Of a DNA stretch of 64,000 nt, positions 8,962 through 64,000 are shown in pieces. This DNA is from Mytilus edulis (lineage: Eukaryota). The notes beneath the pieces were generated by a model. That model was given only the letters and a program-made list of their open reading frames with translations, had not been told where the DNA came from and did not search any database. Each line of letters opens with the position of its first letter. Positions within the stretch are counted from its first letter, which is position 1. A program made the translations under genes and the position numbers. Location of the stretch: assembly GCF_963676685.1 (NCBI RefSeq), contig NC_092348.1, positions 64,976,001 to 65,040,000 on the forward strand. Direction: 5' to 3'.

Positions 8962-9450
8962 AATAAAAGAGGGACGAAGGATACCAAAGGGACAGTCAAA
9001 CTCATAAATCTAAAACAAACTGACAACGCCATGGCTAAAAATGAAAAAGACAAACAGAAAAACAATAGTACACATGACACAACATAGAAAACTAAAGAAT
9101 AAACAACACGAACCCCACCAAAAACTAGGGGTGATCTCAGGTGCTCCGGAAGGGTAAGCAGATCCTGCTCCACATGTGGCACCCGTCGTGTTGCTTATGT
9201 GATTACAAATCCGGTAAATCGTCTAATTCGGTAGGTCACATTCATGAAAGGGAAGGGGATTGAAGTTACGACGTAAGGAACATATTCGATATCATTTGTG
9301 AAACGGTTATTCCATAACGGTCAACCAACTCGTGATGGCGTCCGTAAAATTTACGAAGGGATGATTTCAACTTCACCATTTGGAACTCTTGGTTTAATAG
9401 CTTCCTTGTGAGCAGTAACCCTCTATCAAGAAAATCGTGATAGGAAATGC
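8962..9450 (-). mobile_element. Same retroelement remnant, copy 2 (made by the tandem duplication)
   Basis: Nearly identical to 7242-7730. Confidence 0.7.
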
Positions 9451-43700: not shown

Positions 43701-46700
43701 TTTTCCTTATTGTGTTTTGCAGACGGTTGTCTTTTGATCATTTTTGGTTTATTGCCATGTCATTTCATATTGTCAGTTTGTCTTCAATTAACGAGTTTGA
43801 ATATCTCTTTGGTATCAACCATCTGTATTTTGTCATAGTTCATTACTTTTTCGTGTAAAATTTTCTACGAATCTGTTTAAAGACCGCTACATATTCGTGT
43901 GAATTTTCCAAATAAGGAGCCATACCAATAGATGTATCGTATTTTGACGATATTTCATATTGGAGAATAACATAATGATGTTAGTTATTAATTAGTTTTT
44001 ACTTTTTATTTTACAATTTATCAATGGAAATGTTTTAGTAACAATATATGGGAGTGGTTATTTTCTACAAAAACAGTATTCTGATTCCCAGTTTGAAGAA
44101 AAATATTTAGATCAAAGATAAAGGAAATATTTTTTTTTTATAATCAACAAAATAATAAATAATGTGACGCTTGCGCTGTAAAGAAAGAATATAAAGAAAT
44201 ATTTATTTTAAAAGACTGTTTTTCAACTAAGAGGTACTTTTTGTTATGTATGTCGTTTATATCTGTACCGTGACGTCTAAAAAATCCCCTTTTATTCCTA
44301 CATATATAAGTTGATTTAACTACATGGATCATGTTTCTATAATGTCTTTATCAAATTTTTATGCTTGAAAATAGTTTCTCTCGTTTAATTTATTTTTATG
44401 ACTTTTACTGTCAATTGTCCGGTTGAACTCACTAGATAAATATTATAAACATTACATGTATTGGTTGTTCAATTGTCTCAAATGTAACAACAGATTATTG
44501 ATCGAAAGTTAAATGCCCGTTTTTAGTTTAATCTTGAAGTTTATTTCATTACCTCAGAACAACATCACGATTACGATCTTAACGTTCTATATCATTTTTT
44601 TTGGTGAAAAAATGTCAAAGTTGAGTTTTCATTGTTTTGAACTTCGCTTTCTGGAAGTTTTTTAATGATTAAGATAAAGAAAGAAATGAATATTTTAAAA
44701 TAGTATTTGAAAATGAAGGTATTTTAAATGATTCTAGAATTAAAATGTTATCAGTACTCATTACTTCATTTAAAAAACTTTTGGGTAATTTTTGTGTTTT
44801 TGTGGGTTGTTTGTTTTTGTAATGGCTGGCCAGCGATCAAAATGTTTGAATGTTTCTTTAATGACGTTAAAAAAATTAAAAAAAATATCCAAGGTATTTA
44901 CCTGAAATACTGCTGGTTTGACTAGTGGCAAGACTGAAGTCGTGTAAGAACACCGTCCTTCCTTCATGCCGTATGCTAAATGCTGAGCAGGTTAAATTTC
45001 TATGAATGATTTTGTGTTCATGTAAACATATCACAGCTTCTATAATGTCCACAACTAGTTCTAATAGTCGATGCGTCTGTAACTGATTTTCAACATGTCT
45101 ACTGTTCAATAAATAAGTTAAAAGATCGGGGTCTTTTGACTTTTCAGTCACATAAAACAACGGAATTGGCCGACACTGGAAGGCAAACAATTGCATTATG
45201 CACCGATGGGTTACACCTTCATGTAACGAATGGAGAACTTGTAGAGCACTGGTGTGACGATCAGTATCATACTTCTTTGATTTCCGTATATACTCATCCA
45301 CGTCGCCCTTCGAGAGTGCGTTTAGAGTCGGTAAAAGCATGTGCATAGTCACTATGGTAGAGTCTGCCAATGTTCCTTCATAATCCACCCACTCAGGTTT
45401 AAAATCCTCACCTAGTTCAACACTACTAATTCTTATTTTAAAATTGATTGGATGTAATTTTAAGCTGATTGTTTTGACAAACCTTTGTCTAATTTCATCT
45501 GATTTTACATCATGTTTACGTAATAAATATATGATGTTGACAATAATTTGTTGGCTGCTACTTAACAACAAAGGTTCTATCATGATCAGTAACCTTTTAC
45601 GTAGAGAAAGTCCAATTCTGTCATTGTCTAGGAAAAGATTCAAAATTTTTGCGAGTTTCCAACTCAATTGAGATGGTGTTCTTTGGAAGTCGACATCTGG
45701 AATAAATTAGATATCCATTGGACGTTTCTCTGTACTGATACATCCCGTCATTGTGTTATTGGGCTTTGGTAATTTTTTGTATTTTTGTTTTTCATTTTTG
45801 CTAATGTTCTTTGTCCATATGCCTTTTTGAGTTTCTTTGTTATATATGACGTGGCTTTTTACTTATACATTCTGTCATTGTGTTATTGTGCTCTGGTAAA
45901 TTCTTTTATTCTTGTCTTTCATATGTACCTATGTGCTTTATCTATATGCCTTTTTGTGTTTCTATAATACATATTTTTTTGTTTTTGTAGTGATTAAGAT
46001 TATAACACAACGTTGACTGATGTACCCATTTTTTTTCTTATATTTTTACCTATTATGTCTGTTTGTTTTGTTCACACATCGTTGTCAATATATTGGAGTT
46101 TTATGCGACTGTTATACAAGTGAAAGGTTTAGCTAGCTACTAAACCAGGTTTAACCCACCATTTTCTACATAAGAAAATGCCTTCACCCAGTCAGGATTA
46201 TGACAGTTCTTATTCGACCGTTTGATGTATTTGAGCTTTTGATTTTGCCATTTGATTAGGGACTTTCTGATTAGAATTTTTTTCGGCGTTCGGTATTTTT
46301 GTCATTTTAGATTTAAGAGATTTCCGTAGTATGCAAAACAATTAAAGCTCCCCCTCTATGTATAGCTTCAAAACCGCTAATATCTCCACACAGTTTATGT
46401 TTTTCGTCTATTCTTAAACACATATTGTGTATTTACCTGGTTATTTTCAAAACGAAGGTCTGACCGGTGGTATCGTAAATGTGTTTGAGTAGGAGATGAG
46501 TTGGGTACCAGAAATATTTCTGAATTTTCGGGATTTTTTTTTTATCAAGTTTTAAAGTGGACGACAAAAGATATGCAATGAACTCATATGATCTTACCTA
46601 TATCCTTTCCTAGTCTTAATAGTACTGTTTTAGTTACAAGATGAAGGACTGAAAATAAGACATCATTCATCTTTTGTTTTCGTCTTGCTTTTCTCAATGA

Positions 46701-49700
46701 TTGACGAATTAGCTGATCGAAAAATTCTATGATTTCCATATCCATTGTTTTCATCACCTAAAATATTCAAAACTTGTGTATAAACAAATAAAAATGTGCG
46801 AGTCTTTAAAAGGAGAGTTTTTATCTTTTTTTATTTGTTAAATACATTTAAGAAAGATTTAAGTCAAGCAAATTATTTGAGTTCATTCTATAATGTATTC
46901 TTTGTGTTGTCGTCTGATATTTATTTAAATAGCACCCATAGTTTTGCATTTGTTTCTACTGATGTAGTCAATCAAAGACTATAACTCGAACCGATTCAAG
47001 AGAACAGTCTTGACATAGTGTAAGTTTACATTATTACAAAGAAAGTGTCATTACTTTGCTTCGGGTTTTGACAAGCGTTTGGAGTGATTTTGTTTCTAGA
47101 ATAGCCACATTCCATCTTTTCGAGCACAATATGCAAGATAAAGGAGAGAAGATATTTAAATTATCCAGTGATCTAACAGCGGTACGGTACGAAATAACTT
47201 TTTTTCCAATTAAATGATAATAATATAAAACAAAATGCCAAGCATAATTTGCTAGATTAACCTCTGGTAGCTATCAACTGCTTGAGTTTAAAAAAAGATT
47301 TATCAATTATAAATTTTGATTTTATCTAAATAGTAAAATAGGATTTCAAACTTTATATTGTGACAGATTTTGTAGTTATAATATGAATAAACAGTTCATC
47401 GAACGCAAAATTTGAAAAATAAATTACTTTATCAGAGCAAACCGAAAACGTGACTTGTTTTCTCTTAACGATGAAGAAAGCTCTTTGAGTCATTTACAAC
47501 GTCATTTTTACTTTTAAAACCATTAAAATAACTAGTTACAAATGAACAATCTATCATAAAATTGATTGTTTATCAGGCTTACTGGTTCGACGCAATATAA
47601 GCATTTTTGTGCTGATGCGGTGAAAAGCAACCACCAATCTATCAATCAATCAATCAATCTAGAAACCATTCAATCAATCAAGAAACCATTCAATCAATCA
47701 ATACTAATTAGAAATATTTTCACTTGTGAATATTGACAGATACAAGTGAAGTAATAATTGTCAACTAACCAGATTTGCAACGAAAGCGAGGCACGTATAC
47801 TGTTCGAGGAAGCACATAGTGTTTTGGAAGTCTCGTAATATACGACTTCTATTTTCTTGGATCATCAACGCATCTTTTAAATTTCCAATTTTCAATGACG
47901 TTGATATTCCAACTCTTTGTTTGAAATCAACAAGGAGTACTAGAAGCGAATGTATCAAGCCTGATAATGCATCCTTATTCCCTGCTATGTGATTCGCTAC
48001 TAAGCTTCGCAAAGATTGGTCTGATTCTGCGCAGAATGATTCTATTTCACCTTTTACTTTCTCATGAAGCATAGTAATAGTCAATGTTGACAAATAAAGC
48101 ATAGACATAGTCTCCAGGACAACGGGTAACAAGTTTATCATGATATGAGAGTCTCCAAAATTAGCTTTCACTATTCCTATCAACCACTTTGCTGCTGTGA
48201 AGAGATCGTTCGCTCGTAAGCATCGGTTCATTATATTGTCTTCTAGTTGTAAATGGTTCAAGGTTACTATGATATTTTCCTGGATGTTATAATCTGCAAT
48301 CCCAAGTAGTGTTATCAACCCAAGATAATCCGAACTCATACGTAGTGACTTTAATGTTACATTCTGTATCTGTTTAATCAACTCTTTCTTTTCTTCTTCC
48401 CCAACAATGTAAAACCGTCTTTTCAGATTGTCTAGTGAATCGGTACGTACCAAAACTAATAAAGAACAAACCATTTTATTTAAGAATATTTTGGCAAAAC
48501 AAAACAAGTATCTCAGCTATTGAAAATAGTTTGCTTGTATGTCTTGTTACGACAAACAAAAATACTTCATTAATAAAGTTTTTTGTCTTAATGTAAAAAC
48601 AGTTATCTGTATCTTTCAATCAGTTCTTAAGTAGCAGAATACTAGAGTGTAACTCGTTTTTTATATGTATCGTGTTGCTCAATATTTTGTTTTCGGGGTT
48701 TGTTTTGTGAACCAATGTGTATTGTGCTGATAAGTAGAACTCTCATTGAATATTAAAATATATCAAAGAAAACGCTTGGATTATTATTATTATTCATCTA
48801 CATATTTGTGCCTTTCCTTCTATGAACGGTTAATTATTTTCTCATCGGTATCCTTAAACTTATCATGGGTGTTTTTAATAACAAAACATATTGATAAAGT
48901 GACGTTTGCGTACTTATTTTGAAGTGTGAATCATAGTTATATGTTTCTTTACTTGATTATCCATTTAGAAAAAAGTCTTTGGATAAACATTGGGTTCTTT
49001 AATATAATATTGTATACACCCCTGGGTGGATGTCACTGCTGGTGGACGTTTCGTCCCCGAGGGTATCACCAGCCCAGTAGTCAGCACTTCGGTGTTGACA
49101 CGAATATCAAATACGTGATCATTTTTATAAATTTCCTGTTTACAAAACTTTAAAATTTTCGAAAAACTAAGGATTTTCTTATCCCAGGAATAGATTACCT
49201 TAGCCGTATTTGGCACAACTTTTGGGAATTTTGGATCCTCAATGCTCTTCAACTTCGTACTTGTTTGGCTTTATAAATATTTTGACATGAGCGACACTGA
49301 TGAGTCTTATGTAGACGAAACGCGCGTCTGGCGTACTAAATTATAATCCTGGTACCTTTGATGACTGTATACAATCACAGTAACAACAAAAAATGCATTT
49401 TATATTCAAATAAAGGAATAAGAAAGAACTCATACATGAACGATTTCGCTTTGAATTAGTTATTTGGAGATATTATTAGTTTCTAGTTTCGGATTACATC
49501 AAAAGTTTATTGAATACGGATACAAACACTTCCGTATATTTTTGCGTAATAAAAGACGACCTTTAATCACATAGAAAAGTGTTTTACACTTAAATTTCGA
49601 TATGCAAGATTTATTTTTCATCTTCCTAAAAGAAAAAAAAATGTATAGAAACTGAATTTTAGCATATGAAATAAACGTCACTGTATCTGTTTTCATATAA

Positions 49701-52700
49701 AATGGAGTTCAAAATATTAACAATTTATACTATGGTTAATAGGTTAATATACATAATTAAGTGAAAACCTATTTTTGCCACATATCGGGATAACTTGATA
49801 AGTTTCTTATTTGTTGGAAATTATTTTCAAAATATTTAAACGCGCAAGGAAAAAAATTGAAATTTAGATTACCCGTTCTTTTATTTTTTTAGTTCACAAA
49901 AAACTCTGTATTTGTTGTATTTTCAAAAATATTAAAAAAAAAAACAACTCCCCAAAATTTAAAGTATTTGCACAGAGGTATCTATTCCTTTGCAAAACCG
50001 AGTGCATGAATAATTCAATAATTTTACTGTTTTCAAAAATTGTATGTATGTATGTCTTTAGAAATAGAGCAATATGAATAAAAAAATATGAGAGTTGTGC
50101 ATCAATGAGATTGCAACCAAACAACACACACACACACACACACACAAACAAACGAGCTTATCCAAGAAACTAATGAATATAATATTTTTAGTTTATATTC
50201 TAAATTGTTTAATTTTTTTAAATTTTTAAATCATATGATATAAAGGGACAAAGAAAACAATGACATTAAAAACAAGCAATAAATCCACGATGGGAGCTTC
50301 GATAGATGTTCAGAAGATGGAGGCTCAATTCATTTAACATTGGCAATCAACTTAAAGAAACTAACAGGAACAAATATATGAAGCGAATGAAAGTATAACT
50401 CCTGATCACGATATAAATACATATTTACAGATCGTGCCTTTTTGGAGTGTAAAATTGGATGATTCATCTAATTCCCCTCAACGCGATTTACATATATAGT
50501 AATTCTTACCAGATGGGAAGCAAGCTTTGGCCAAAAGGAAAGTCCCTCTATTATTTTCTCCTGGTTCTAATGTCGACGAATGAACGAACCCACAATGTGA
50601 ATGTTTGAAATGTCTTAGTTTCTTATAAGTTCCACCAATACTGTTGACGTCATCATAATCAGATGAGTGTTGTTTGTAGAATAATTCTTCGTTTCTTTCT
50701 CTATTATCAGAAAGAGTTGTTTTTACGTAAGACGCGATAGGTTCAGCATCGGTTATCTTAAACATTTTGAAATTGTGGAATATTTGTTTGGTTTGAAGTC
50801 CATGAAGATCACCAGATATGATCACCTTATTACTTACATCCTGTAAGTATCTCTTGATTTTTCGGATGTTTTGTTGTAGATGTTTACAGATAACCAGAAT
50901 GATGAAATCTGACTGTTCGACTACTCTCGGCACTTCTAAATTTATAACGTCTGCTTCTACAACGAAGTCTGTTGTCGACAAATCATGTTGCTCGAGAGCC
51001 AAATGGAGGTTAGACGCCCATGTACATCTGTCTAGCAGAAAACATCGCATCACACATACTTGGTGAGAATCCGTATTAATATAGCTTGAGCTTTCCATTG
51101 TACTATCTAGGCATGGTGTAGGTCTAACTTCGTCAGACTGTTCATCTTAAAAGAAATATTTCACACTGAAAATTCCACTATAAAAAATAACCATATCCAA
51201 ATCAATTTTGTTAACAAATAAAAAATACATCTTACAATAATATCAATCCCAAGGTAAACTATAAGTCTATTGAATTAACAGGTCAAGAATATATAATTAC
51301 ACATTGCATGTAAAGCGTGAAGAATATTTGAATAGTTAAGTATTGAATTGTTAAATGCTACGATTTGTTGTTAAGTTGTCAGATATAACCAGGAAGTCGT
51401 AGTCCGTGATTTTAAAGTATATAAAGAAATTAAATAGGTCTATACTTACATGAAAGTCACAATGGCCTTGGTTAGGAGGTTTTAATTTTTGTCGTAATAA
51501 TTTTCAATGCATTGAATGCCACTGTCCTTTTAAAGCATAATAGAGAAAATTTCGAATATATTTTTGTATATAATTATGCAATATTACACCTGAGTTTTTA
51601 CCTACTTTTACAATATTAGTATATATTTCCCACAAGTGATGATGCGAAGACTTTTCTAGGAAGTCGTTGAAAATTAGATGGTTGACCCAAGTGAGATGGG
51701 AAGTAGTACGGATTCTGAACAGTGATGATCAAAAACGAGAAGGATATATTTCGAGTAACTTTTTTGCAACACAGAATTGAGATGGCCACCAAAAGATCAC
51801 AGTTTTCTTACAAGACCTTCACGATTATTTTTTTTTGCAAGCAGATTGTTAAATGGAGAATTACCAATATAGCTCTACATTACGGGAAACCAGTTTCAGT
51901 ACTGTTTATAACGAAGGGTCGTCCTGAACATCCATAAACTATTTGAACCTTGACGTTACGCAATCAAAATTCAATCAGTTTAACTAAGGGAAACTAATAC
52001 TCTTGTAATTAATAACTCGCGAGTTTCAGCTCGAGAGTTTTAAACAATTAATCCATCACATATTTAGTAGTGCTGATTCTTTATATCAATGTTCGCGACA
52101 GAGTATATGCATACCAGTGACGTATACGTAATGGCGTAATAAAATTTGTTTGTTAGTTTATTGTGTCAATTTCATCATGCTTTACTTTTTCATGGCGGTC
52201 AATTATTATTGATCAGAAGGAACCACCGACCTTTAAAATATGAAATTTGCAAATCATTGAAAAATTAAGACAAGCATCCCAAACTGTAGAAATCCCCATT
52301 GGTAAAGTTGCAACATAAGGTTAAAAGTATATCCTTGAATAAATATACAATTACTCATATATTGTCGAGTTTCCTCTTTTGTCAGTACAAACCTATTATC
52401 ATGTCGGAATCTAAAGAGCATTCTCCAGGAACATAAAGCAAGCAATCCTTCATAGCTTTGTCATCATTCACACTAACTACGTCAGGTTCTTTTAACTCTT
52501 TTGCATTTTGAGGTATACAGACATCAACACTTGTTCGTTCTTTGCTTTCTTTAGTTTCGTTGTTTCCATTGTTTTCTGTTGAATTGTGTTTCCTTTCACG
52601 TCTGCGTGACGCTCCTTCATAATTGAAATTGGCATGGACATAACTTGCAAGACTGTCGACTTCAACAACCGGAAAATGTTTGAAATCTTCGGTATTTTCA

Positions 52701-52984
52701 TTCAATGTCTCTTTGAAATTTCCAGCAATAACTGTTTTGCTACTTTTCAAGCACTGAAGAATCGTTTCCAATTTTGGTTTCAAATGGTCACAGAACATCA
52801 AAACCACGTGATCGGAACGTTTTGAAATTAGCAAAAGGTCTTTGAAACTAACCTTGTCGATAATATGTTCTGATGGTACCAGATTAAAATTTTCAAAGAT
52901 TGAGAAAACATTTGAAATAGGAATACAAGAATCTCTCTCCTGACATCTCAAAAATAATATACTGCCCTGGTCTAACTGTGACAT
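28751..52984 (-). CDS. 1688-aa protein: 2x TIR/SEFIR-like repeat + helical region + two tandem tyrosine-kinase-fold pseudokinase domains + disordered tail; 16 coding exons, intact
   Basis: Exons (-): 52984-52393, 51145-50510, 48455-47770, 46757-46598, 45696-44902, 43537-43365, 42763-42598, 41699-41617, 39790-39739, 38633-38509, 37494-37327, 36984-36775, 36325-36228, 34808-34643, 33416-33265, 29555-28751. All GT-AG, phases join, 5067 nt, no internal stop. Kinase motifs: domain 1 IIHRNLTCSAF, HDFSLA, IPVLWSSPES, TDAWMLG, HPY; domain 2 LGDLCAEHLYV, PRIG, RRWNPIEV, SDVYRFA, CPDWLY..CW....QRPS. Confidence 0.88.
29639..29864. mobile_element. Small MITE-like element
   Basis: Imperfect inverted ends gagggagtttcattggggg / ccccaatgagatccactt; internal tcccg repeats. 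Confidence 0.5.
29915..32638. mobile_element. Outer Helentron/HINE-like element split by the 30182-32515 insertion
   Basis: Hairpin aaaaataccagtc...gcgagccgtaaggcgag...gactggtattttt, and inverted pair taattacacc (30060) / ggtgtaatta (32628). Class is inference. Confidence 0.5.
30182..32515. mobile_element. 2.33-kb non-autonomous DNA transposon (Harbinger-like) with 3-bp TSD, nested in another element
   Basis: TIRs tgcccgcgtcttactgtcccgattttta / taaaaatcgggacagtgtgacgcgggca; TTT on both sides; catcgt-rich subterminal regions; 21-bp tandem x3 at about 32227-32289. Confidence 0.8.
32810..33107. mobile_element. ~300-bp MITE
   Basis: TIRs ggctaagttcggatgga / tccatccgaacttggcc; internal ctagagttc-like repeats. 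Confidence 0.65.
35154..35733. mobile_element. 580-bp MITE in an intron
   Basis: TIRs aggagtaggtccggtaagggccaatttcggcctcaa / ttgaggccaaaaaggggtcttactgaacctactcct. Confidence 0.75.
38976..39357 (+). mobile_element. Same retroelement remnant, opposite orientation, intronic
   Basis: ggacgccatcacgagttggttgaccgttatgg...ggtatctttcgtccctctttt is the reverse complement of about 7245-7623. Confidence 0.75.
39847..40463. mobile_element. ~615-bp MITE in an intron
   Basis: TIRs atgtaacggtacccaaattgcacc / ggtgcaaattgggtaccgtcacgt with TA flanks; the 18-bp TIR motif is duplicated at the left end and recurs internally near 40250. Confidence 0.75.
40772..41046 (-). mobile_element. More diverged partial copy of the same retroelement remnant
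   Basis: aaagatactagagggac...agggtaagcagatcctgctccacatgtggcacccgtcgtgttgc matches 7257-7525. Confidence 0.7.
45735..46310 (+). mobile_element. Interspersed element with about 2 diverged ~128-bp internal tandem units; related copy reversed at about 33570-33835
   Basis: atacat.c.gtcattgtgttattg.gct.tggtaa occurs twice; the 3' part ccaccattttctacataagaaaatgcct...cggtatttttgt matches 33580-33760 in reverse. Confidence 0.6.
47637..47702 (+). repeat. (AATC)n microsatellite, probably a retroposon tail
   Basis: aatctatcaatcaatcaatcaatc...caatcaatca. Confidence 0.7.
49020..49365 (+). mobile_element. Interspersed repeat family (partial copies at about 4180-4262, 12000-12065, 13620-13757, 41375-41515)
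   Basis: Shared gagtcttatgtagacgaaacgcgcgtctggcgtactaaattataatcctggtacctttgat. Confidence 0.75.
50122..50146 (+). repeat. (CA)n microsatellite
   Basis: About 12 CA units read directly. Confidence 0.9.
50510..52984 (-). other. Two exons, each encoding one copy of a ~115-aa alpha/beta repeat with a TIR/SEFIR-like pattern
   Basis: Copy 1 vs copy 2: LRCQERDSCIPISN/MRCFLLDRCTWASN, SDHVVLMFCDHL/SDFIILVICKHL, KTVIAGNF/KVIISGDL, FKHFPVVEVDSLASYV/FKMFKITDAEPIASYV. The duplication is seen directly; the TIR-fold assignment is inference from the betaC-like S-D-x-hydrophobic stretch. Confidence 0.6.
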
Positions 52985-53640
52985 TGTCAGTTTGAATAAA
53001 AGACTGAATGTAAAAGTAGAACATAATTTTATAGTTTGTAAACAAAATCATAATGTAAATATATGGTACTTTTAAAATGAAATATATATACAAATAATTA
53101 TTTACAGCTATTTTACCAGTTGAGTCATTTGCATGTTATGTAAAACAACTGTATTTAATACCTCATAAATATTTCAAGTATGTTTTATCTGTTTTGGCAA
53201 AATCATATAATTATAACATTCAATTTGGTACACATATAGTCAGGCTTATAGAAATCTTAATGTGTTCAACATTTAAAGTTCAGTTTTGTTGTTTTTTTTA
53301 AATAGAAGAGATATATTGATTTCAATGTGGATAATAAATAATAATTACAAATACATGTAATAGGTAATTACAAGTGTTCAGATGTCCTTTAAACAGTCAT
53401 ATGAAACGACTTTCTTGTAATTATAATGTTAAGGAAATTATTAAAATCAATGCATTCAAATATATATAAAACTGAGTCATCAGCTCTGGTTTTTTTTATT
53501 ACATTTATAACAAATCTATAACGTATAACTGAAAAAAAGAAAAAAAAAAAGAAAGCAGTAATTGTTGATTGATAATTTGGCTGCAATTAGTTTTCGAGTA
53601 TTGGTGCCGAGGTATACCAATCGTGACGTTTTAAACAATT

Positions 53641-54910
53641 ATACGGCAAGCCGTTCTCGTCAAAACTATGTTTAAACCATTTTTTTCGAGAGAAAAAAAT
53701 ACACAATGAGATTTAAAACCCTAAAATAACACACTGAGAAATCGAAATTACACACTGAGATTTTAAAATTACACACCGAGATTAAATAAATGAAAAACAC
53801 GCACTGAGAAATTAAAATTACACACTGAGATTTTAAAAAGACACACTGAGATTAAATAAATTGAAAAACGCACACTGAGAATTGTTAATTACACACTGAC
53901 ATTTTAAAAATACACATTGAGATTAGTATGCAAATTACTAATGAATACTCATGAGATGAATAATTCACCAGAATAATATCTTGGTCTCTATCATGTCTAT
54001 AGAACTCTTGTCATTATAATGAAATGCGGTTCCTTCAACCAACGTTCATAATAAATTTCAAGACTTAACATCGTTTTTTGCTAACTCATATTCACAAGTT
54101 TGTTGTCAATATGATTCAGATTAATATTATTGCTAACGGCTTATCGGGATTGTTTGCTTAAAACTGTTTAAGCATATGTCCTTTTTCAAAAGTCTTTCAA
54201 CTGTTACCCTGATTTCGCAAGGTAATCTTTTATATTTTTGTTATTACGTTTATATGCTATAATAGACAATTGGGTGAACATGTCATTGCATTGTTGTTTT
54301 TTTGGAGATTGTTCCAATGAATTCTTATAATGTTGATAAAGTGTTCACCATTTGGTTATATCAAAGACATATATAATACATGTCTCTGGTTATATTTTGT
54401 AATGAGTGTAAGTGGGTATTTTTCTTGTTCTATTAGTCTTTAATGTTGTATTGCTAATGTATTTTATAAAACATTTGGCACCAGATTGAAGGACTAACGA
54501 GTTATGTCCCCTAGTTGTTTTAAGCTTGTAATAGATTAAGATTACGTATGCTAATTAGATATGTGCGCATAAAAAGTGGGCACGAATCTCAGTGTGTAAT
54601 TTTCAATTCTCAGTGTGTAAATTCAAATTCTCAGTGTATGTTTTTCAGTTTATTTCATCCCAGTGTGTCTTTTTGAAATCTCAGTGTGTAATTTTCAATT
54701 CTCAGTGTGTAATTTTCAATTCTCAGTGTGTGTTTTTCATTTTTTTCGTAATCTCAGTGCGTCTTTATGAAATCTAAGTGTGTAATTTCTTATTCTCAGT
54801 GTGTGTTTTGAGGTTTTTTAATCTCAGTGTGGGTTTTTTTTAAATTCTCAGTATGTAAAATTTTCGGAAAATGTTTTAAACATAGTTTTGACGAGAACTG
54901 CTTCCCATAC
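53641..54910. mobile_element. 1.27-kb foldback-type DNA transposon derivative with long modular inverted arms and AATT TSD (Sola1-like)
   Basis: Termini atacggcaagccgttctcgtcaaaactatgtttaaa / tttaaacatagttttgacgagaactgcttcccatac; AATT at 53637-53640 and 54911-54914; arrays of acacactgaga units at about 53700-53925 mirrored by tctcagtgtgt units at about 54587-54855. Confidence 0.8.
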
Positions 54911-55555
54911 AATTATAACACGTGTGTATCGACAGGGACAGCACAGCCGGCTTTGCAGTTCTAAACTTTTACCTTATACGATTACAAGTATGACTGATCG
55001 AGAGAACTCGGGGATAAAGAATTTCAACGGTGTCAATTTTCATCAACTCGATTAGATTGAGACCTACTACTAGAGGTTGTTTATCGACCTTGACTTGCAC
55101 GGTCGGACAGGATATACCTAAAATTCTGACAACGCCAAATTTCTACCCTGATTACACGATTGCTCCTTTTCCAGGAGCAACTCAAGTTTACTATGCGCGA
55201 ACATTGGCGACCCACTGCACAATACCTTTTTATGCAATGCTGTTTTCATTTTTGTCGGCAAAAAGCTGTACAGAGCTTATGTTTGTATTATTCATGTAAC
55301 TCAGTCGACTTAAAATCAATTTTCTATTCTATAGTCATCAACATGCAAACCAATTCATTCATAATTATCCAGCATCAAGTGCCTTAGCTAACTGCAAAAC
55401 CAGAAATAACATCAAAGCATTGAGTGTCAACACCAGAGAATGACAAATGACGATACTAATAGCATTCGAAGTCCAGGAAAAACAAAAGAGGTATTTACAT
55501 TAACTACAAATGTCAAAGCCAAAAACTTAAAAGTCAGTGCCAATATCACAGCACC

Positions 55556-56400: not shown

Positions 56401-58067
56401 ACATGCGATATGTTTATTTATTAATTACCGATAAATTGATATTTTTATCAAATGTAAAGTCAACTTTGTGACGGTTAGAGTTTATAAATAACACAGTCAT
56501 TGTTATACTTAGCGTTAAATACTTTATTTTGATTGAAATTAAGATACTTTAATAATTAATAATCACACAAAAGGATTGTTTGACTGCTTAAAACAAAGGT
56601 TAGATTAAAGTTTTCATACTCAAATATCATGTACACCAGTGGGTAAACAACACTGCTGGTAGACTATAATAGAATTAAATGCGGACTTAGAAATCTCGAC
56701 CCTCCCTCTGTACCTCTAGCTAATGTGGAATAGGCAAATAAAGGCAACAGTAGTATACCGTTGTTCGAAACTCGTAAATCGATAGAAAAAAGAAAAAAAA
56801 AACCGGGTTACAAACTAAAACTGAGGAAATCGCATGAAATATAAAAGGAGAACACCGACACAAGATTAAAACGTTACACACACAGAGAAACGAACTAAGC
56901 ATTAGACACTATCGGATGAGAATAACAAATATAACATCAAAACTAAATACATGAATTTGGGATAGAAAAGTACTGTGACACGTCTTATAGCAATGCGAAT
57001 TCACACTCAAATATAAGAGGAAACAAATTACACACCATAAACACAACGTTAAAATATAACACACACAGAAACGAACTATTATATAACAATGGCCATATTC
57101 CTGTCTTTGTACAGGACATTTTAGACACACGGCAATACGCACAGCAAAGCTCAGTTTTAAAGATGTCCGAATCCGTGTTAGAATAGGAAACAGGAGAAAT
57201 TATTAGTAAGCAAAATGATAATGATGAACATAGGTAAAAAAACAAATTAAAAAAAAGACTACTTGCAGTTACTGACATTCAAGCGCTTAGCCTCGGACTG
57301 CAACTAATTTGATCGAATGATTGTCTTCATCATATGAAAATCAAGCATACTCCCTCTCGTTAAGGGTTAAGTGTCGTACCATCATGAAATATACGAGAAG
57401 ACCATACTCGCATTATGACAACAACTGCATTGTTTTAGACAATTTAAAGCATCGTCCATTTTTCTCCTGGAAAAGTTCAGGGTGAATAGTGTATTTGGTA
57501 TAAAACAAAAATCCTAGTTTTGCTGTATTAGTTTGGCGTTTAGAAATAATACAATGCTGATCAGAGACTTTATAGATCCAAGATACCCTGTAGCTAAACA
57601 GGTCACCTATATGCATGTTCGTCGTATCTGCAGATACAGATACACGGTCACCTGTTAGACGACATATGTTCCTACAAATTGATGACCGACACTTTTTTTT
57701 AATTTTAAGCAAGCCTTTATCTATTCTTACTCGTCTTTGTAGTGTTATGTATGTGCAATAATAGTTTTTTGTTTTGTTTATTAATATTGACACCTGGGGG
57801 TCACTACACTGTTTTTAACTATAATCCATCTTCATTATGTTTATCACTATAGAGCCCTAATGAAACCTATTCAAACGGCATATTTTGTAAGGTAATTCTT
57901 TTCTTAAACAATACAATTACATGTAAGCAAGATTAAGCTAATAGTATAAGTAAGACATGATTGATGATTGCATAAAAGCCGAGAACATCATTAAAATCAA
58001 ATAAAAAGATTATATCCTATAATGTATAAAGCAGAGCTTAAACAATGCTACTTGTTAATTCACGATC

Positions 58068-59072
58068 CTATCCTGTAACAACTTGTGAAACCTCCTGTCC
58101 TAAAATATCCTGAAGTTTTATTTCAATTGTACTTCCCTGAAAACGTGGATTCTCAACTTTCCTACAACTCGGATCTACAGCTGATTCGATCTCCGACCCA
58201 TTTATGGAGATGCAATAAGAAAATTGAGGTGTGCTCGATTCGTTTACATTCCATTCGATTGCTGATTCTGTAACTTTCACTACTTCAAAACTTGTTGGAG
58301 GTATTTTTGGCCGGCATAAGTTGGTATCCATAGTAATTTGACCTCTTGTGTCATCACATGTTGGTGCTGTTTTTCCTCCCGTTTGCATCATTAGCTCTTC
58401 GCAGTCTTCTGATTCAATTCTGAAATTGTTATTCCACTTTTTACACGCGTCTTCTTGGTTTACCAAATATTGACAATTTTTCAAACATTCCCAGCTTCCA
58501 TCTTTGCTTCTTTTAAAGGTACCCTTGTACTTTGCTCCACGTGGATTTTCACCATTTCCATGCCAATCTTCAACAAAACAAGCTACAGGACTTAAAAAAT
58601 ATATGTCGGGTACTGGAAAAGCCATAGTTATCATTCGTATCCATTTTGATTTTGGTGTATCATATACCCAGAGACCAAAGTGCGTGTTTCCATTCTGGTC
58701 CCATCTTCGAACAACCAAAGTGTACCATTGATCTGGTTCCCATCTGTGTTCAAAGTTCATGTACTTTAACCCTTCTCCTTCCCCGCCAAATCGTTCTGTA
58801 AACGAATTTCCGTCCGACTTGAAAACTGATTCTATCGACCTTTGTGTTCCCACGGGAGGATCCCATAAAGAACAGATGAAGCAGTTACCATCCTCGTGAC
58901 ACTGTATTCCACAGTATCCCCCTCCAACTCCACCCATATTCCAATTAAGACAACAATAATAAGTATATTTAGCGCAAAGATCTTTAGGTACATATACATT
59001 TTGTACTAAGATATCCCCTTCGCCAGAATGGTTAAAATACGTAATCACCGATGGCGCTCTGTTTCCTGCCAT
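58068..59072 (-). CDS. Bacterial-type DUF3472-domain protein, 334 aa, intronless CDS
   Basis: Motifs APS..., YTYY..LNWN.GG.GGGY.GIQ, SLWDP, RFGGEGEGLK, W..D.WY....RRW, HFGLW, M.FPVP, F.EDW.GNG...R.A match Bacillus/Paenibacillus-type DUF3472 proteins as I recall them. Acceptor ttttctctctttttcag abuts the ATG. Minus-strand AATAAA near 57780. Confidence 0.85.
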   Translation of the reverse strand: MAGNRAPSVITYFNHSGEGDILVQNVYVPKDLCAKYTYYCCLNWNMGGVGGGYCGIQCHEDGNCFICSLWDPPVGTQRSIESVFKSDGNSFTERFGGEGEGLKYMNFEHRWEPDQWYTLVVRRWDQNGNTHFGLWVYDTPKSKWIRMITMAFPVPDIYFLSPVACFVEDWHGNGENPRGAKYKGTFKRSKDGSWECLKNCQYLVNQEDACKKWNNNFRIESEDCEELMMQTGGKTAPTCDDTRGQITMDTNLCRPKIPPTSFEVVKVTESAIEWNVNESSTPQFSYCISINGSEIESAVDPSCRKVENPRFQGSTIEIKLQDILGQEVSQVVTG

Positions 59073-60429
59073 CTGAAAAAGAGAGAAAATTATTGAATAT
59101 AATCAGATATAATACAGTGAAAAAAACCTTTAATTACTACTAGTGATTTAAAATACGGAAGAGTTTCATACTTCTCTTCTGGACTTGCACATGTGGATCA
59201 AATTCTGAAATGCGTTTCACACGCAGTAACATTGGTACGTCTTGTTTTGTTTTGTTTGTTATTCTATATTACTTTATTTGGTTTTTGTTTTGTTCTTCTT
59301 TCAATACATTTTATTTTTATTTTCTCAACTTCTTTGTTCCTGTTTCAGATTAATTTAGGTTCGTTCTCCATTATAAATTGTACGTGTCATTTCAGTTTTA
59401 GCCATATAGAATCAAATTGTAAATGACTGGAATGGTGACCCTTTTTCTAGTGAGGCAAAGGAAAATAATGCCTCAGCAAGGACCAAGATCACAATACCTC
59501 TGTGGAAGGAATGGTTCACGGGCAAAATCAGCATATCAAATATGTTTACATAATCTACATAATCAATAAGGTTATTTCTATATTCTCGTAACGTTCAGTG
59601 GCAAATAATTAATTCATACTCCGGATAACAACAAATCAATTATCATGAAATCTAATAGGTATACAAATGTATGTTTTACCCCAAAAAAATGACTGCAGAT
59701 AGAGATGAGGGACGAAAATTTGTACTGCAACTGAAATGAGATGAAGTGTTGGATATGGGTCGAAATGTTGCAACATTTATCAAGGCATCCAGCAAACAAG
59801 TAAGCCCGCATCATGTCAAGCAGGCGGCGACCAAAGGCAAGAATTCACTGACGGACAGCGGAATTCAAAGTTACCAATATATGTCTATACTGGCAGATGA
59901 ATTGTTTAATTAAAGAATTATTTTTTTTGCGGTTGTCTATGTCTATGTCTAAATATTTCAAATCATGATGGCGTTTAATAAATAAAGCAATAACTTTATC
60001 ATCAAGGACCTTCATAGGAAGCAATAATTCAATATCATAAAAATCATTATAAGAAAAACAAGATGTGGCATATTGTATCAACTAGGAGCTATATCAACTC
60101 CACATTGCTAAGCCTATAACGAAAGAAAATGTTAATGTGAAAAGCAACCCTAATTATTTGTGTGGTCCTTTGTTTACTTCAGGCTCAAAGGAATTAATAG
60201 AAGATGCGTTATTAGCATCGTGGTCCGTGTAACACATCAATTCAAAATTTTAAAAAGTTTTCAATTTTTAGTTTGGTCGATTTTTATCAAACCTTAATGA
60301 CTTAATGATATCAAAATTCCTATTTCTTTTTCTTTTTAATTTTTCATTTCGCTTTTTAAAAGTTTGATTTTTTGTTGTTGATTTTTAAAATGTAGGAAAG
60401 GGGAAAGGACTAAAAAGTGAATACCTGTT

Positions 60430-60572
60430 CACAGGCACTTGTCTCAGATTTGTTTTCTCCTTTATACCTTAATATAACACACAGGCACTTGTCTCAGAAT
60501 TTTTTTCCCCTTCATACCTTAATGTTATATTAAGGTATAAAGGGGGGGGGGATTCTGAGACAAGTGCCTGTG
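60430..60572. mobile_element. 143-bp hAT-type MITE with 8-bp TSD
   Basis: TIR cacaggcacttgtctcaga / tctgagacaagtgcctgtg; TACCTGTT at 60422-60429 and 60573-60580; left arm tandemly duplicated. Confidence 0.8.
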
Positions 60573-60909
60573 TACCTGTTACAAGTGCGAAATGTAATTA
60601 AGACGGGAACGAAACGAAATGAAATTTACTAAAATACTGAAATCAAAACGAAAACAATATTTTTTGAAAACTAGATACAATATAATACAGGAGACAAACT
60701 TGTTTTATCTGCTGGGTGAAACTGAGAAATATGCAGTTTCTTAAGTTAAGTCGAACTGAAATTAATAAGGAAGACCAGATTTTGAAACACTTCAATGACT
60801 CGATCTCTGACTTATATTTCAAATATTTTTAAAACTTTGAATCGATAAATGATACACGGACACAGAGGCATGTTTACTAACACACTGTAGTATGACGGTA
60901 TGTCTCTTA

Positions 60910-61983
60910 CAGTGGCGTAGCTAGACTATTTTTAAGTGTACGCCCTAACCCTCGGCGAGTTGGTTGAAGGCCTCAATCGGATCCAGATTATAACACCTAC
61001 TAGAAGTGGGTTCGAGATGGGGAGCTCATTTCAGTCATTAAAAAAATAGTCAATAGCAAGTTGAACATTGGTCCTGGAACACAGTTATCGTCCTTTGAAA
61101 ATAGACCATAGTGTGAACAATGTGTTCCTGGTTACTTGACAACAATCTTTTCATACTACTTTCAAATTTATTTCTTCATGTTTAATGACTAAATAACAAG
61201 AAGGGCGGGGATGAAATTACACTGTAAAACAAATTGTTTCATGCATTTCAAAGCAAAGTAGTTATTTAATTGGTTCAGCTAAAAAAGGTCAAAAAGTAAC
61301 ATTTCGGAAGCTGTCAAAAGATTTCAACCATATTTTTTGTTAGAGCCGACGAAGCTTATTAAAAATAGTACTACTAGTAAACAAAATTATTGAGAACGCG
61401 CACAAGGGCATGTTGGATTTTTTTAATTTTCATTTATTATCTAAAAGAAATGCACTACGACATAACTGTGTTCTCGGAACAAATGTTTAGGTGCATATAA
61501 AAATTCGTAAAGAGTTCCGAATAACTGTGGTTCTGGAGGCTGGGATTACCGCTTCATGCGAAATTTTAGTCCGTTTATCTGTCCATTACAGGATTTTAAA
61601 TAATCAAACACTTTCATCATTTTTTTTTTGTTTTTTTTTTATCAGGATTATTAACCTCTGTCTAAGTTTCACGTCAATATCTGAAGGTTTTTCAAATTGG
61701 TCATGTAGAAAATATTAATCACAGGGCGTGATGCCACCTGTTAATTGCCAAAAGATAAGTCCGTATGCCAATATTTTACTTAAGACATTTATCACATAAT
61801 GTATCTGATTGAAAAGTAAATTTCGTCACCTTTTGTTCGCAGTTACAAGATCTGTAAGAAAGATTTACAAGACTGATGTGCTATATACCAGATTTTTTTG
61901 AATTATTGAGATTAAAATATTTTTTTTAACCCAAATTCATGTGTACGCCCGGGCGTTTTGACGTAAACATAGCTACGCGCATG
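60910..61983. mobile_element. Probable hAT-like non-autonomous element
   Basis: Ends cagtggcgtagcta / tagctacgcgcatg with gtgtacgccc near both ends; no clean TSD found. Confidence 0.5.
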
Positions 61984-62720
61984 TCTTAAAATACAGTGTA
62001 CCTTTAGCCAATGTGAAACAAACAAACACACAGTGCTCAAAACTTTTTATACTGAGATGTATTTTATTAAGACTCTTTCAAGTTCAAAATTCAGAGGATT
62101 TCAACATGGTCTCGTATTTAATCCTGAAGTGAAATAAACACAGCGTACGATGTTCAGACTTTGGCCAGAACCAAGCATCATAAGATGTTTAACCCTGAAT
62201 ATGCTCTATCTTAGTCTGCAAGCATATGATAATACTTTTTTTCTTTTGGCCCTGTGTAAATTAAACATGTTAAACAGGCTATGGTTTGAACTTTCAAAAT
62301 GATATCGACTGACCAATCATTAGCAATATATAAAGGGTATAAAGATTTATTACGAAATCATATCCGCACGGAAATTAACTTATTATTTCCGGCAACTGTT
62401 CCGGAGATTATAATTATGTAATGAAACCTCAATGAAAAGTTTGCGAACAGAACGAACAGTTTAAAAAAAGAAAATAATCCATGGACATGCATAGATTTTA
62501 AAAGAGTATATGAAATGAAACTTCTAAATCAGAAAATGACGTAATTGCGGTGGTAAGAGCATAATCATAATAGTCAAAATAAGTTTTCAACGTGCCAAAA
62601 TCTGACCGAGCTGGCGTGCAGACGACCAGGAAAGAGTTCCATCCACAGAATATAATATAAACTGATGTGTTAGGGTGTTGATCCATATGGAACTCTCATC
62701 AAATTATATAATTGTACTTA

Positions 62721-62785
62721 CGTTTTGATATCTCTCTTAACTTTCGATTGTGTGACTAGACAGGTGTTTTCCCTTAATATCAAGT
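62721..62785 (-). promoter_or_regulatory. Possible non-coding first exon and core promoter of the DUF3472 gene
   Basis: Minus-strand donor AAC|GTAAGTA near 62720, about 60 nt after a TATA-like ATATTAAG. It would pair with the acceptor at 59073. Inference only. Confidence 0.35.
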
Positions 62786-64000
62786 TATTGAGTGACTGGC
62801 CATGCAATATGTTTAATGATTTAACTAAAAACCACCACAACCACAAAAGTAGATGAAACAGAAAATTACTTATAAAATAGCAGTTTGATTTTAAGTTAAA
62901 TGTTAGGTAGTTTAAATCTTATCATTTATTCACAGTACATGTACATGATGTACATGTATGTGCATCAACATCATCAAGTGATCAAAGCTTCCATGCAATT
63001 TTAAAAAAATGCCTCAGTATCATATATTGTTGATATTTAAAATTTAAATTAAGAATTGAAATGTGGAATGTGTCAAAGAGACAACAACCTGACCATGAAG
63101 CAGAAAACAGCCAAAGGCCACCAAAGGGTCTTCAAGACTTCAACACAGCGAAAAATCTCAAACCCAGAGGTGGGCTTCAGCTTGTTTGTGGATCTATGGT
63201 CCGCAAACAGTCAAAAAATAACATAAGGACCTAAGAGCTACGGTTTCCACAGCTAGGCTTCAGCTGGCCCTTAAATAATAATGTATACTAGTTCAGAGAA
63301 AATGGACATCATGCATACTAAACTTCAAAACATAAATAAACTGAAATTAAAAAAAAGATACAAGACTGACAATTTAAGGCCAGAGACTAAGGATAGGTGC
63401 AAAAATGCACAAGACCATTTCAGAATAGGTAACAAAAAAGAATTAAGGCAAACCTATACATAAATTAACTTTAAGATGTACATGTATTACTAGCAGTAAC
63501 TGACATATTACCAACTATGCTAATTGTGTTATCTGTGTTATGCTTTAAGTGCCAGATAGATTACATGTACATTGTTGTACATGTTGTACCAGTTGCAATT
63601 TTATGAAAATAAGGAAATGGGGTATGATTCCCAATGAGACAGCTATATATAATATCCACCAAAGTTCAAATCAAGTAATTGTAACCAATCATGGCAATAA
63701 TTTATACATTCCTAGCAACAAAAAAGACAACAATATGCCAGAGAGTACTGGGAGTTACTGACAGCTAGTTTAAAGCAAAACAGAAAAAATCATGTAACTA
63801 AGACAAAAATATTCATCAGCACACATCCAACTTCCAATAGATATTATAGTGTAAAGATGTAATTAACAGTCTGACATCTGGTATTTTTATTACCATTTAT
63901 AATTATGCTTTCTGTGTTGATTACAGTATCAGTGTGGTCAGTAAGGTCATCTGTTATGGTTTTACCAATTATGTTAAATGTTTTCACTAGTTGGGTTATC

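What the first reader, a model, noticed from the sequence alone, without database searches (positions are those of the whole stretch)
58068..59090. Bacterial-type DUF3472 gene apparently domesticated in an animal genome
Seen: a 1005-nt intronless, intact CDS among intron-rich neighbours, flanked by host repeats. A polypyrimidine tract and CAG sit directly against the ATG, and there is no signal peptide. Known from recall: DUF3472 is mainly bacterial, often fused to carbohydrate-binding modules, with only sporadic eukaryotic members such as a Hydra nematoblast-specific protein. Inference: horizontal transfer followed by capture of a spliced 5'UTR exon and promoter. Function unknown; possibly glycan-binding or glycan-active in digestion or defence.
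Basis: partly seen in the sequence, partly recalled or inferred. Interest (0 to 1): 0.75.

Follow-up and report, generated by a model that had tools for sequence, protein, structure and literature searches.

The report
Mussel mucin-cutting enzyme borrowed from bacteria
This is a real, spliced mussel gene whose protein is predicted to have the fold and active site of a bacterial mucin-cutting enzyme; it likely came from marine bacteria early in mollusc evolution and, unlike its bacterial relatives, has no obvious export signal.

Summary
There is an intact 1005-nt ORF (59072-58068, minus strand; 334 aa; DUF3472, E 1.6e-48), found once in the genome. Public contigs from 3 of 4 likely-RNA runs join it across a 3649-nt GT-AG intron to a non-coding first exon, so it is a host gene (98% identical to Mytilus galloprovincialis). 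Its function is no longer blank. DUF3472 is the catalytic domain of the di-glutamate mucinase HC7 (Foldseek TM 0.85). The mussel keeps Glu168, equal to HC7 Glu200 (the residue mutated in HC7's substrate complexes), and the near-invariant Glu98. The gene is old: bivalves, gastropods and a chiton carry it, and related copies have gained coding introns. Trees nest the mollusc group among marine bacteria, next to Alteromonadales, whose homologs are secreted, carry CBM32 modules and sit beside TonB receptors; support for a single mollusc clade is moderate (89/70). Mollusc copies lack the leader and the CBMs. Best reading: an anciently transferred, leaderless O-glycopeptidase that cuts mucus proteins after non-classical release. 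Activity and location are untested. Transfer of DUF3472 into animals is already published for centipedes.

The parts
58068..59072 (-). Coding sequence (exon 2), 334 aa, HC7-type di-glutamate mucinase homolog without leader or CBM
58326..59066 (-). DUF3472 jelly-roll catalytic domain, residues 3-249
   Evidence: AlphaFold2 model pLDDT 93; Z 37.6 to 8PMU
58779..58781 (-). Codon for Glu98 (FGGEG motif), equal to HC7 Glu131; inferred second catalytic glutamate
   Evidence: E in 342 of 352 domains
58569..58571 (-). Codon for Glu168 (FVEDW motif), equal to HC7 Glu200, the residue changed to Ala in the glycopeptide complexes
   Evidence: E in 352 of 352 domains
58071..58310 (-). Second small all-beta domain (about residues 255-334), also present in the HC7 crystal structure and in the nearest bacterial relatives
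   Evidence: model aligned 5-334 with 8PMU 37-373
59073..59089 (-). Polypyrimidine tract and AG acceptor directly before the ATG
59073..62721 (-). 3649-nt GT-AG intron in the 5' UTR, containing host repeats
   Evidence: joint 59072/62722 in 3 of 4 runs; donor GTAAGT
62722..62796 (-). Non-coding first exon; the 5' end is approximate (45-75 letters joined in contigs); in-frame TAA six codons before the ATG
57846..58067 (-). 3' UTR covered by contigs continuous with the CDS; an AATAAA lies at 57782-57777 (use not shown)
   Evidence: table 8

Best explanation
This is a spliced, single-copy mussel gene whose protein is predicted to fold like the bacterial mucinase HC7 and keeps its glutamate pair, so it likely cuts the peptide backbone of mucin-type proteins next to short O-GalNAc (Tn/T) sugars, likely in mucus after release without a signal peptide, and it likely entered molluscs from a marine bacterium at or before their common ancestor. 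Shown: gene structure, splicing, family membership by sequence, conserved residues, presence in three mollusc classes, and absence of a leader and of CBMs. Predicted: the fold. Inferred: catalysis by Glu98 and Glu168 in the jelly-roll cleft (about 0.85); O-glycopeptide specificity (about 0.7); bacterial donor by horizontal transfer (about 0.8); action outside the cell, for example thinning or digesting feeding and gut mucus, rather than in the cytosol (about 0.55).
For: phmmer against PDB: 8PMU/8PN3/8PN5 at E about 1e-34. Foldseek TM 0.85, E 1.7e-28, to 'HC7-Glu200Ala mutant complexed to a triglycopeptide'; VIA-align Z 37.6, rmsd 2.6 over 316 residues, with the next named family (neprosin) at Z 15. 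HC7 is a di-glutamate Bacillus cereus mucinase active on Tn and T mucins, and its CBM5 only broadens its range (PMC13003899, passages). E168 maps to HC7 E200 and E98 to E131. E168 is present in 352 of 352 domains, E98 in 342, Q57 in 342 and W70 in 341. The mussel matches the family consensus at 45 of 48 conserved columns. The nearest named bacteria (Colwellia, Pseudoalteromonas, Thalassotalea, Lacimicrobium) encode DUF3472 with F5/8-type galactose-binding modules after a TonB receptor; a GH2 gene lies beside one Pseudoalteromonas copy, and GH109 and GH2 flank the Ignavibacteria copy. Careful mixture-model tree of 30 rows: molluscs plus the Alteromonadales group 95/86, inside a 100/97 set with marine Bacteroidota and Ignavibacteria. 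A hydrophobic leader is found in 47 of 55 scorable bacterial-type proteins (74 given) and in 0 of 32 scorable mollusc-type proteins (35 given). Precedent for leaderless export of glycan-binding proteins in mussels: mytilectins (PMC10744619, passages). Of 4 variant sites seen in the CDS, 3 are synonymous.
Against: No activity, substrate, tissue or location data were obtained. Identity to HC7 is only about 31%, and I could not read the HC7 paper, so the sugar-binding residues were not checked and Glu131 as the second catalytic residue is my inference. The lack of a leader, a median Cys content of 3.7% against 0.5% in bacteria with most Cys positions unconserved, and no conserved N-glycosylation sequon fit a cytosolic protein, where mucins are absent. 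Mollusc monophyly has only 89/70 support, and only after long branches were left out. With them in, a Bacteroidota-type protein (P0066) fell inside the mollusc group, and a quick mixture tree also pulled in two Bacillus-type rows. A leaderless EukProt protein (P0071) groups with the molluscs. The root is not inferred.
Confidence: 0.55

Rival explanations
1. The enzyme is catalytically intact but works inside the cell: a cytosolic glutamic peptidase re-aimed at intracellular glycosylated proteins (for example clustered O-GlcNAc regions), or stored there and freed only when cells are damaged, as a defence against parasites or predators.
For: No leader in any scorable mollusc-type protein (0 of 32), and the protein starts at the position of the bacterial mature N-terminus. 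Cys-rich with variable positions and no conserved sequons. CBMs were lost. DUF3472 proteins occur in centipede venoms (PMC7864903, section 10).
Against: The conserved cleft-side columns match the bacterial secreted enzymes; only 3 mollusc-specific columns were found (C41, R123, F262). Mussels are reported to export leaderless lectins. The O-GlcNAc idea rests on my general knowledge, not on a test.
Confidence: 0.25
2. One reading: a lectin or glycoside hydrolase on a GH16-like fold, not a peptidase.
For: Weaker fold matches include GH16 glucanases, galectins and legume-lectin-like domains (Z 9-15); PDB 4QHW/4QHX was deposited as a 'putative two-domain sugar hydrolase'.
Against: The best match by far is the mucinase HC7 (Z 37.6 against 15 or less for characterised glycosidases), and Glu200's equivalent is invariant. 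The 4QHW label is a depositor's guess.
Confidence: 0.08
3. On origin: not a direct bacterium-to-mollusc transfer but an older eukaryotic gene lost in most lineages, or a gene relayed through a protist, or two separate transfers into molluscs.
For: A leaderless EukProt protein (P0071) and an unnamed ENA protein (P0050) group with the molluscs, and a clade holding them is not rejected (AU p 0.45). Many animal and fungal lineages carry DUF3472. The mollusc group splits into a well-supported 8-row set (98/96) and weakly attached gastropod paralogs. Most database rows are unnamed, and names were looked up for only 30 proteins.
Against: Mollusc proteins are about 40% identical over their full length to marine bacterial proteins (E 1.1e-73) and nest among them. 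The published analysis rejects metazoan monophyly of DUF3472. The scallop protein in that study is a short, different subfamily by eye. The family rang in 0 of 14 control genomes.
Confidence: 0.2
4. Bacterial contamination in the assembly, or a recent insertion specific to this mussel.
For: Intronless CDS with close bacterial homologs.
Against: It lies on a 97-Mb contig, is spliced to an upstream exon, has host-like GC3, and has 89-98% identical orthologs in three Mytilus species and homologs in a chiton and gastropods.
Confidence: 0.01

Closest known systems
HC7 di-glutamate mucinase of Bacillus cereus (PDB 8PMU, 8PN3, 8PN5; Narimatsu et al. 2024 Nat Catal, seen only as a title in reference lists and as described in passages of PMC13003899)
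   Same: Two-domain core over the whole mussel protein (TM 0.85, Z 37.6); Glu200 equivalent and Glu131 equivalent; conserved Tyr, Trp, Asn, Gln and Arg columns.
   Different: About 31% identity. No leader and none of the Mucin_bdg, fn3 or CBM5/12 modules seen in the B. cereus ortholog P0103. Many more cysteines. An animal gene with a 5' UTR intron. Activity untested.
DUF3472 plus CBM32 proteins of Alteromonadales (Colwellia, Pseudoalteromonas, Thalassotalea, Lacimicrobium) and marine Flavobacteria
   Same: Nearest bacterial group in the trees; 37-42% identity over about 97% of the protein; same second domain.
   Different: They have leaders, 2-3 F5/8 or ricin modules, and in Alteromonadales an operon with a TonB receptor and a second DUF5077-DUF3472 gene. 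None is characterised in what I could read.
Centipede DUF3472 venom proteins and other animal DUF3472 transfers (Undheim and Jenner 2021, PMC7864903)
   Same: Same Pfam domain; bacteria-to-animal transfer reported as repeated.
   Different: The searched supplements name no Mytilus or Haliotis protein (file 10 is cut). The Mizuhopecten sequence shown is a short other subfamily. The passages I read give no enzymatic function. I could not place those sequences in my trees.
Glutamic peptidases neprosin and eqolisins; GH16 glucanases
   Same: Jelly-roll fold, Z 11-15.
   Different: Under 12% identity and far weaker than HC7; a shared fold only.
Mytilectins
   Same: Mussel glycan-directed proteins without a signal peptide, reported to leave the cell by a non-canonical route; some genes have a non-coding 5' exon (PMC10744619, passages).
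   Different: Unrelated beta-trefoil lectins; an analogy for export only.

Membership tests
Pfam DUF3472 (PF11958) | HMM score above the gathering cut-off | tested here: met
   166.1 bits against 24.8, profile positions 10-256 of 269
HC7-type di-glutamate mucinases | Jelly-roll catalytic domain plus second beta domain superimposable on HC7 | tested here: met
   Predicted model pLDDT 93, pTM 0.92; TM 0.85; Z 37.6, rmsd 2.6, 316 aligned
HC7-type di-glutamate mucinases | Glutamate equivalent to HC7 Glu200 | tested here: met
   Glu168 aligns to Glu200; 8PN3 and 8PN5 carry Ala there
HC7-type di-glutamate mucinases | Second catalytic glutamate | tested here: inconclusive
   Glu98 equals HC7 Glu131 and is in 342 of 352 domains, the only other near-invariant Glu; its catalytic role is inferred because the paper was not held
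HC7-type di-glutamate mucinases | GalNAc-binding subsites as defined in the HC7 complexes | not testable with these tools
   No coordinates or paper text available; only overall conservation was measured (45 of 48 columns)
HC7-type di-glutamate mucinases | Cleavage of Tn/T O-glycosylated mucin domains | not testable with these tools
   Needs an enzyme assay
HC7-type di-glutamate mucinases (typical architecture, not the catalytic definition) | Signal peptide and appended CBM or mucin-binding modules | tested here: not met
   No leader by heuristic and exon 1 is non-coding; Pfam finds only DUF3472. Hence filed as a variant.
Horizontally acquired animal genes | Physically in the host genome and spliced | tested here: met
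   97-Mb contig; GT-AG joint in 3 of 4 runs
Horizontally acquired animal genes | Nested within bacterial homologs with good support | tested here: inconclusive
   Nested in all trees built; sister grouping 95/86 and mollusc clade 89/70 without long branches; unstable with them; no independent root; other animal copies not sampled
GH16 glycoside hydrolases or lectins | Best sequence and fold match to a characterised GH16 or lectin | tested here: inconclusive
   No Pfam GH16 or lectin hit; fold matches Z 9-15 only

The most novel reading that the evidence does not exclude
Molluscs carry, since before chitons, snails and bivalves split, their own mucin-selective protease taken from a marine bacterium and stripped of its export signal and binding modules. 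It would be an animal-encoded di-glutamate O-glycopeptidase, a class of activity so far studied in microbes, used to control or digest mucus in a phylum that feeds, moves and defends itself with mucus, or re-aimed at glycosylated proteins inside the cell. By extension the DUF3472 proteins of centipede venom and of Drosophila Vesanto virus would be mucus- or glycocalyx-cutting enzymes.
Probability: 0.45. Interest if true: 0.75.

Novelty: new variant of a known kind. Interest (0 to 1): 0.58.

Why it matters
Mucin-selective proteases are studied as microbial tools for breaching animal mucus. An animal lineage that has kept one, with its active site intact, across three classes points to a host-controlled way to remodel or digest mucus, which bears on filter feeding, gut function and defence in farmed shellfish. 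The loss of the leader raises a testable question about where a glycopeptidase can work without entering the secretory route. The compact 334-aa CBM-free form is also a candidate reagent for O-glycoproteomics. The parts are known separately (HC7 function 2024; DUF3472 transfer into animals 2021). I did not find the link to molluscs in print in searches for DUF3472 (5 papers), DUF5077 (1), di-glutamate with mucinase (4) and related terms. The HC7 paper itself was not readable and may already list eukaryotic or mollusc homologs.

Tried and rejected
Paralogs in the own genome: searches with the protein, with PF11958 and with a short-subfamily protein each gave only this locus; intron-rich distant copies could be missed. 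A coding first exon that adds a signal peptide: rejected for the observed exon (in-frame stop); alternative first exons were not excluded. Reading the hydrophobic in-frame stretch just before the ATG as a relic signal peptide: rejected, because it is the polypyrimidine tract, is spliced out and has no start codon. A viral carrier: no relative in viral contigs (50 pattern hits, 0 confirmed) or phage records. Five of 24 listed runs held next to none of the words; this is no evidence about tissue. An 85-row mixture tree did not finish. The 40-row mixture tree was read only as a quick tree and showed long-branch joins; one row labelled 'named mollusc' there (P0004) is in fact unnamed. For the final tree I left out the long or unnamed rows P0066, P0103, P0075, P0050, P0071, P0019, P0053, P0004, P0013 and P0017. 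In one search, 1 of 7 junction probes matched a non-exon frame and was not counted. nb001 as the Hydra homolog: rejected, it is a minicollagen. Earlier scan findings: none returned. PMC13355702, PMC13523644 and PMC12518865 (passages) gave no detail on HC7 residues. The ESM Atlas search only returned DUF3472 clusters. No complex prediction was run, since no binding claim is made.

Full report
Observation. The minus strand holds an intact ORF from ATG 59072 to the stop ending at 58068, 1005 nt and 334 aa. Pfam assigns DUF3472 to residues 3-249 at E 1.6e-48. Three searches of the 1.37-Gb own genome found this locus only, on a 97-Mb contig. A 15-nt pyrimidine tract and AG touch the ATG; that pattern occurs once in the window. 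GC3 (0.32) lies within the range of six neighbouring ORFs (0.23-0.36). The flanks and the intron hold high-copy repeats.

It is a spliced host gene. Of 24 runs listed, 19 hold at least half of the sampled words, from 11 studies; one is on record as RNA and most of the rest are guessed to be RNA. In 3 of the 4 runs laid, a contig joins 59072 to 62722, skipping 3649 nt with GT..AG ends on the gene's strand; the fourth contig ends at 59072. The donor reads GTAAGT. Exon 1 has an in-frame TAA six codons before the ATG, so it is 5' UTR and adds no leader. Contigs run on to 57846 in the 3' UTR. Three of four variant sites in the CDS are silent. Alternative first exons were not excluded. The protein's 90% cluster holds Mytilus galloprovincialis (328 of 334 identical), M. 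trossulus and M. californianus, so the host is a Mytilus mussel.

What the protein is. The PDB sequence search gives 8PMU, 8PN5 and 8PN3 at E about 1e-34. The AlphaFold2 model (25-sequence alignment, pLDDT 93.2, pTM 0.92) matches these entries at TM 0.85; their titles are the HC7 apo form and HC7-Glu200Ala complexed with glycopeptides. The wide VIA-align search ranks 8PMU first (Z 37.6, rmsd 2.6, 316 residues), then the uncharacterised 4QHX (Z 30), then neprosin and GH16-type folds at Z 15 or less. HC7 is described as a di-glutamate Bacillus cereus mucinase that cuts mucins with Tn and T O-glycans, with a CBM5 that broadens its range (PMC13003899, passages). The primary paper was not held. Through P0103, a B. 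cereus protein that matches the 8PMU stretch shown almost letter for letter, mussel Glu168 maps to Glu200 and Glu98 to Glu131. Among 352 domains kept from 375 profile hits (near-copies included), Glu168 is in 352, Glu98 in 342, Gln57 in 342, Trp70 in 341 and Arg178 in 348. The mussel matches the consensus at 45 of 48 columns conserved at 80% or more. That Glu98 is the second catalytic residue is my inference.

Age and origin. Named homologs occur in bivalves (Mytilus, Tegillarca, Potamilus, Ruditapes, Mercenaria, Dreissena), gastropods (Haliotis, Gigantopelta, Babylonia) and the chiton Liolophura, at 36-48% identity outside Mytilus. If these have one origin it predates the split of chitons from shelled molluscs, more than 500 million years ago (date from my own knowledge). 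Five metagenome loci closest to venerid proteins are split genes; 6 of 6 correctly located junctions are GT..AG, and one position near residue 85 is shared by four loci. An intronless CDS in Mytilus is therefore no sign of recent transfer. The best bacterial-type hit scores E 1.1e-73 at 39% identity over the full length. A 258-row FastTree, a 62-row LG+G4 tree and a 30-row LG+C20 tree all place the mollusc proteins among marine bacteria. In the last, 12 named mollusc rows form one side at 89/70; the set with the mussel, the chiton, two gastropods and four other bivalves has 98/96; molluscs plus Alteromonadales-type rows have 95/86, inside a 100/97 set with marine Bacteroidota and Ignavibacteria. 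Against this: long rows were left out of that tree; with them, the bacterial-type P0066 sat inside the mollusc group, and a quick tree also drew in two Bacillus-type rows. A leaderless EukProt protein and an unnamed ENA protein group with molluscs, and a clade of molluscs plus these is not rejected (p-AU 0.45), which does not prove it. No independent root was used, and non-mollusc animal copies were not among the proteins I could name (30 looked up; 150 of 499 representatives listed). I put direct or near-direct bacterial transfer at about 0.8.

Context of the likely donors. In 5 of the 5 Alteromonadales long-form loci scanned (L002, L003, L006, L007, L008) a TonB-dependent receptor precedes the gene, and in 4 of them a DUF5077-DUF3472 gene follows; the proteins carry F5/8-type galactose-binding modules. 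A GH2 gene lies beside a second Pseudoalteromonas copy, and GH109 and GH2 genes flank the Ignavibacteria copy (29 of 55 ORFs from 12 loci were submitted). This fits uptake of GalNAc- and Gal-bearing glycopeptides and supports mucin-type substrates for the subfamily nearest the mollusc gene. The flavobacterial loci showed no such neighbours.

What changed in molluscs. The proteins begin where the bacterial mature chain begins. A hydrophobic leader was found in 0 of 32 scorable mollusc-type rows (35 given) and 47 of 55 scorable bacterial-type rows (74 given), by a simple heuristic. CBMs are gone. Median Cys content is 3.7% against 0.5%; only C40, C41 and C54 are well conserved (23 of 25 each) and sequons are not. 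This looks like a protein made in the cytosol. Mucin O-glycans are added in the Golgi (general knowledge), so the enzyme either leaves the cell by a non-classical route, as reported for mussel mytilectins (PMC10744619, passages), or acts inside on another substrate, or is freed by damage. I favour extracellular mucus cleavage slightly, because the conserved columns are unchanged and only three mollusc-specific columns appear.

Comparison with print. Undheim and Jenner 2021 (PMC7864903; passages, section 10, supplement file 3 part 12 of 19, file 10 part 116 of 400, and supplement searches) report DUF3472 in centipede venoms and reject a single animal origin. Their tree lists Crassostrea, Mizuhopecten, Pomacea, Hydra, copepods, Daphnia, Macrostomum and corals, but no Mytilus or Haliotis protein. 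The scallop sequence is by eye a short, different subfamily; the oyster and Pomacea sequences were not seen, and file 10 is cut. Drosophila Vesanto virus also encodes DUF3472 proteins (bioRxiv 10.1101/2020.10.16.342956, passages; its supplements are closed). No paper or 76 (search listings, some passages) links a mollusc DUF3472 gene to mucinase function, but the unread HC7 paper may list eukaryotic members.

Verdict. A real, ancient, domesticated gene; a leaderless, CBM-free mollusc variant of the HC7 di-glutamate mucinase family. It works like HC7 by fold and catalytic residues; membership by activity is untested. Interest 0.58.

Noticed in passing
window 53637-54914: A 1.3-kb element bounded by long inverted arms (47-nt outer arms at 89%, inner arms up to 140 nt) built from about 21-nt subrepeats; it looks like a foldback or MITE-type transposon.
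   Followed up: partly
window 44876-45706 (-): Exon with a partial Tyr/Ser-Thr kinase domain (PF07714, E 4.5e-9); nearby ORFs at 47761-48516, 50478-51146 and 52382-53047 have no Pfam hit.
   Followed up: no
L083:8492-8740 and 9352-9735 (+), about 8-10 kb beyond the window end: Exons of a 5'-nucleotidase C-terminal domain gene on the opposite strand, so head to head with the DUF3472 gene; whether the promoters are shared was not examined.
   Followed up: partly
L084, about G000:C5:65052900-65059800: A tandem array of about 7 kb with a unit near 57 nt (19-residue period in translation) that gives many spurious long ORFs.
   Followed up: no
L002, L003, L005-L008: Alteromonadales operon: TonB receptor, DUF3472 with F5/8 modules, then a second DUF5077-DUF3472 gene; a likely mucin-glycopeptide uptake locus in marine gammaproteobacteria.
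   Followed up: partly
P0006, P0007, P0020, P0023: Four Haliotis rubra paralogs with neighbouring LOC numbers and the same longest-contig length (211,146), which suggests a tandem expansion in abalone; some abalone paralogs are Cys-poor.
   Followed up: no
P0068: Unnamed protein sister to the chiton copy that has lost the Glu98 motif and carries a long insertion; possibly an inactive copy.
   Followed up: no
PMC7864903 supplement file 10, part 116: The Mizuhopecten DUF3472 protein belongs by eye to a short single-domain subfamily and also seems to lack a leader, so bivalves may hold two independent DUF3472 lineages; none of the short type was found in this genome.
   Followed up: partly
P0071: A leaderless EukProt protein that groups with the mollusc proteins on a long branch; its organism is not given.
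   Followed up: partly
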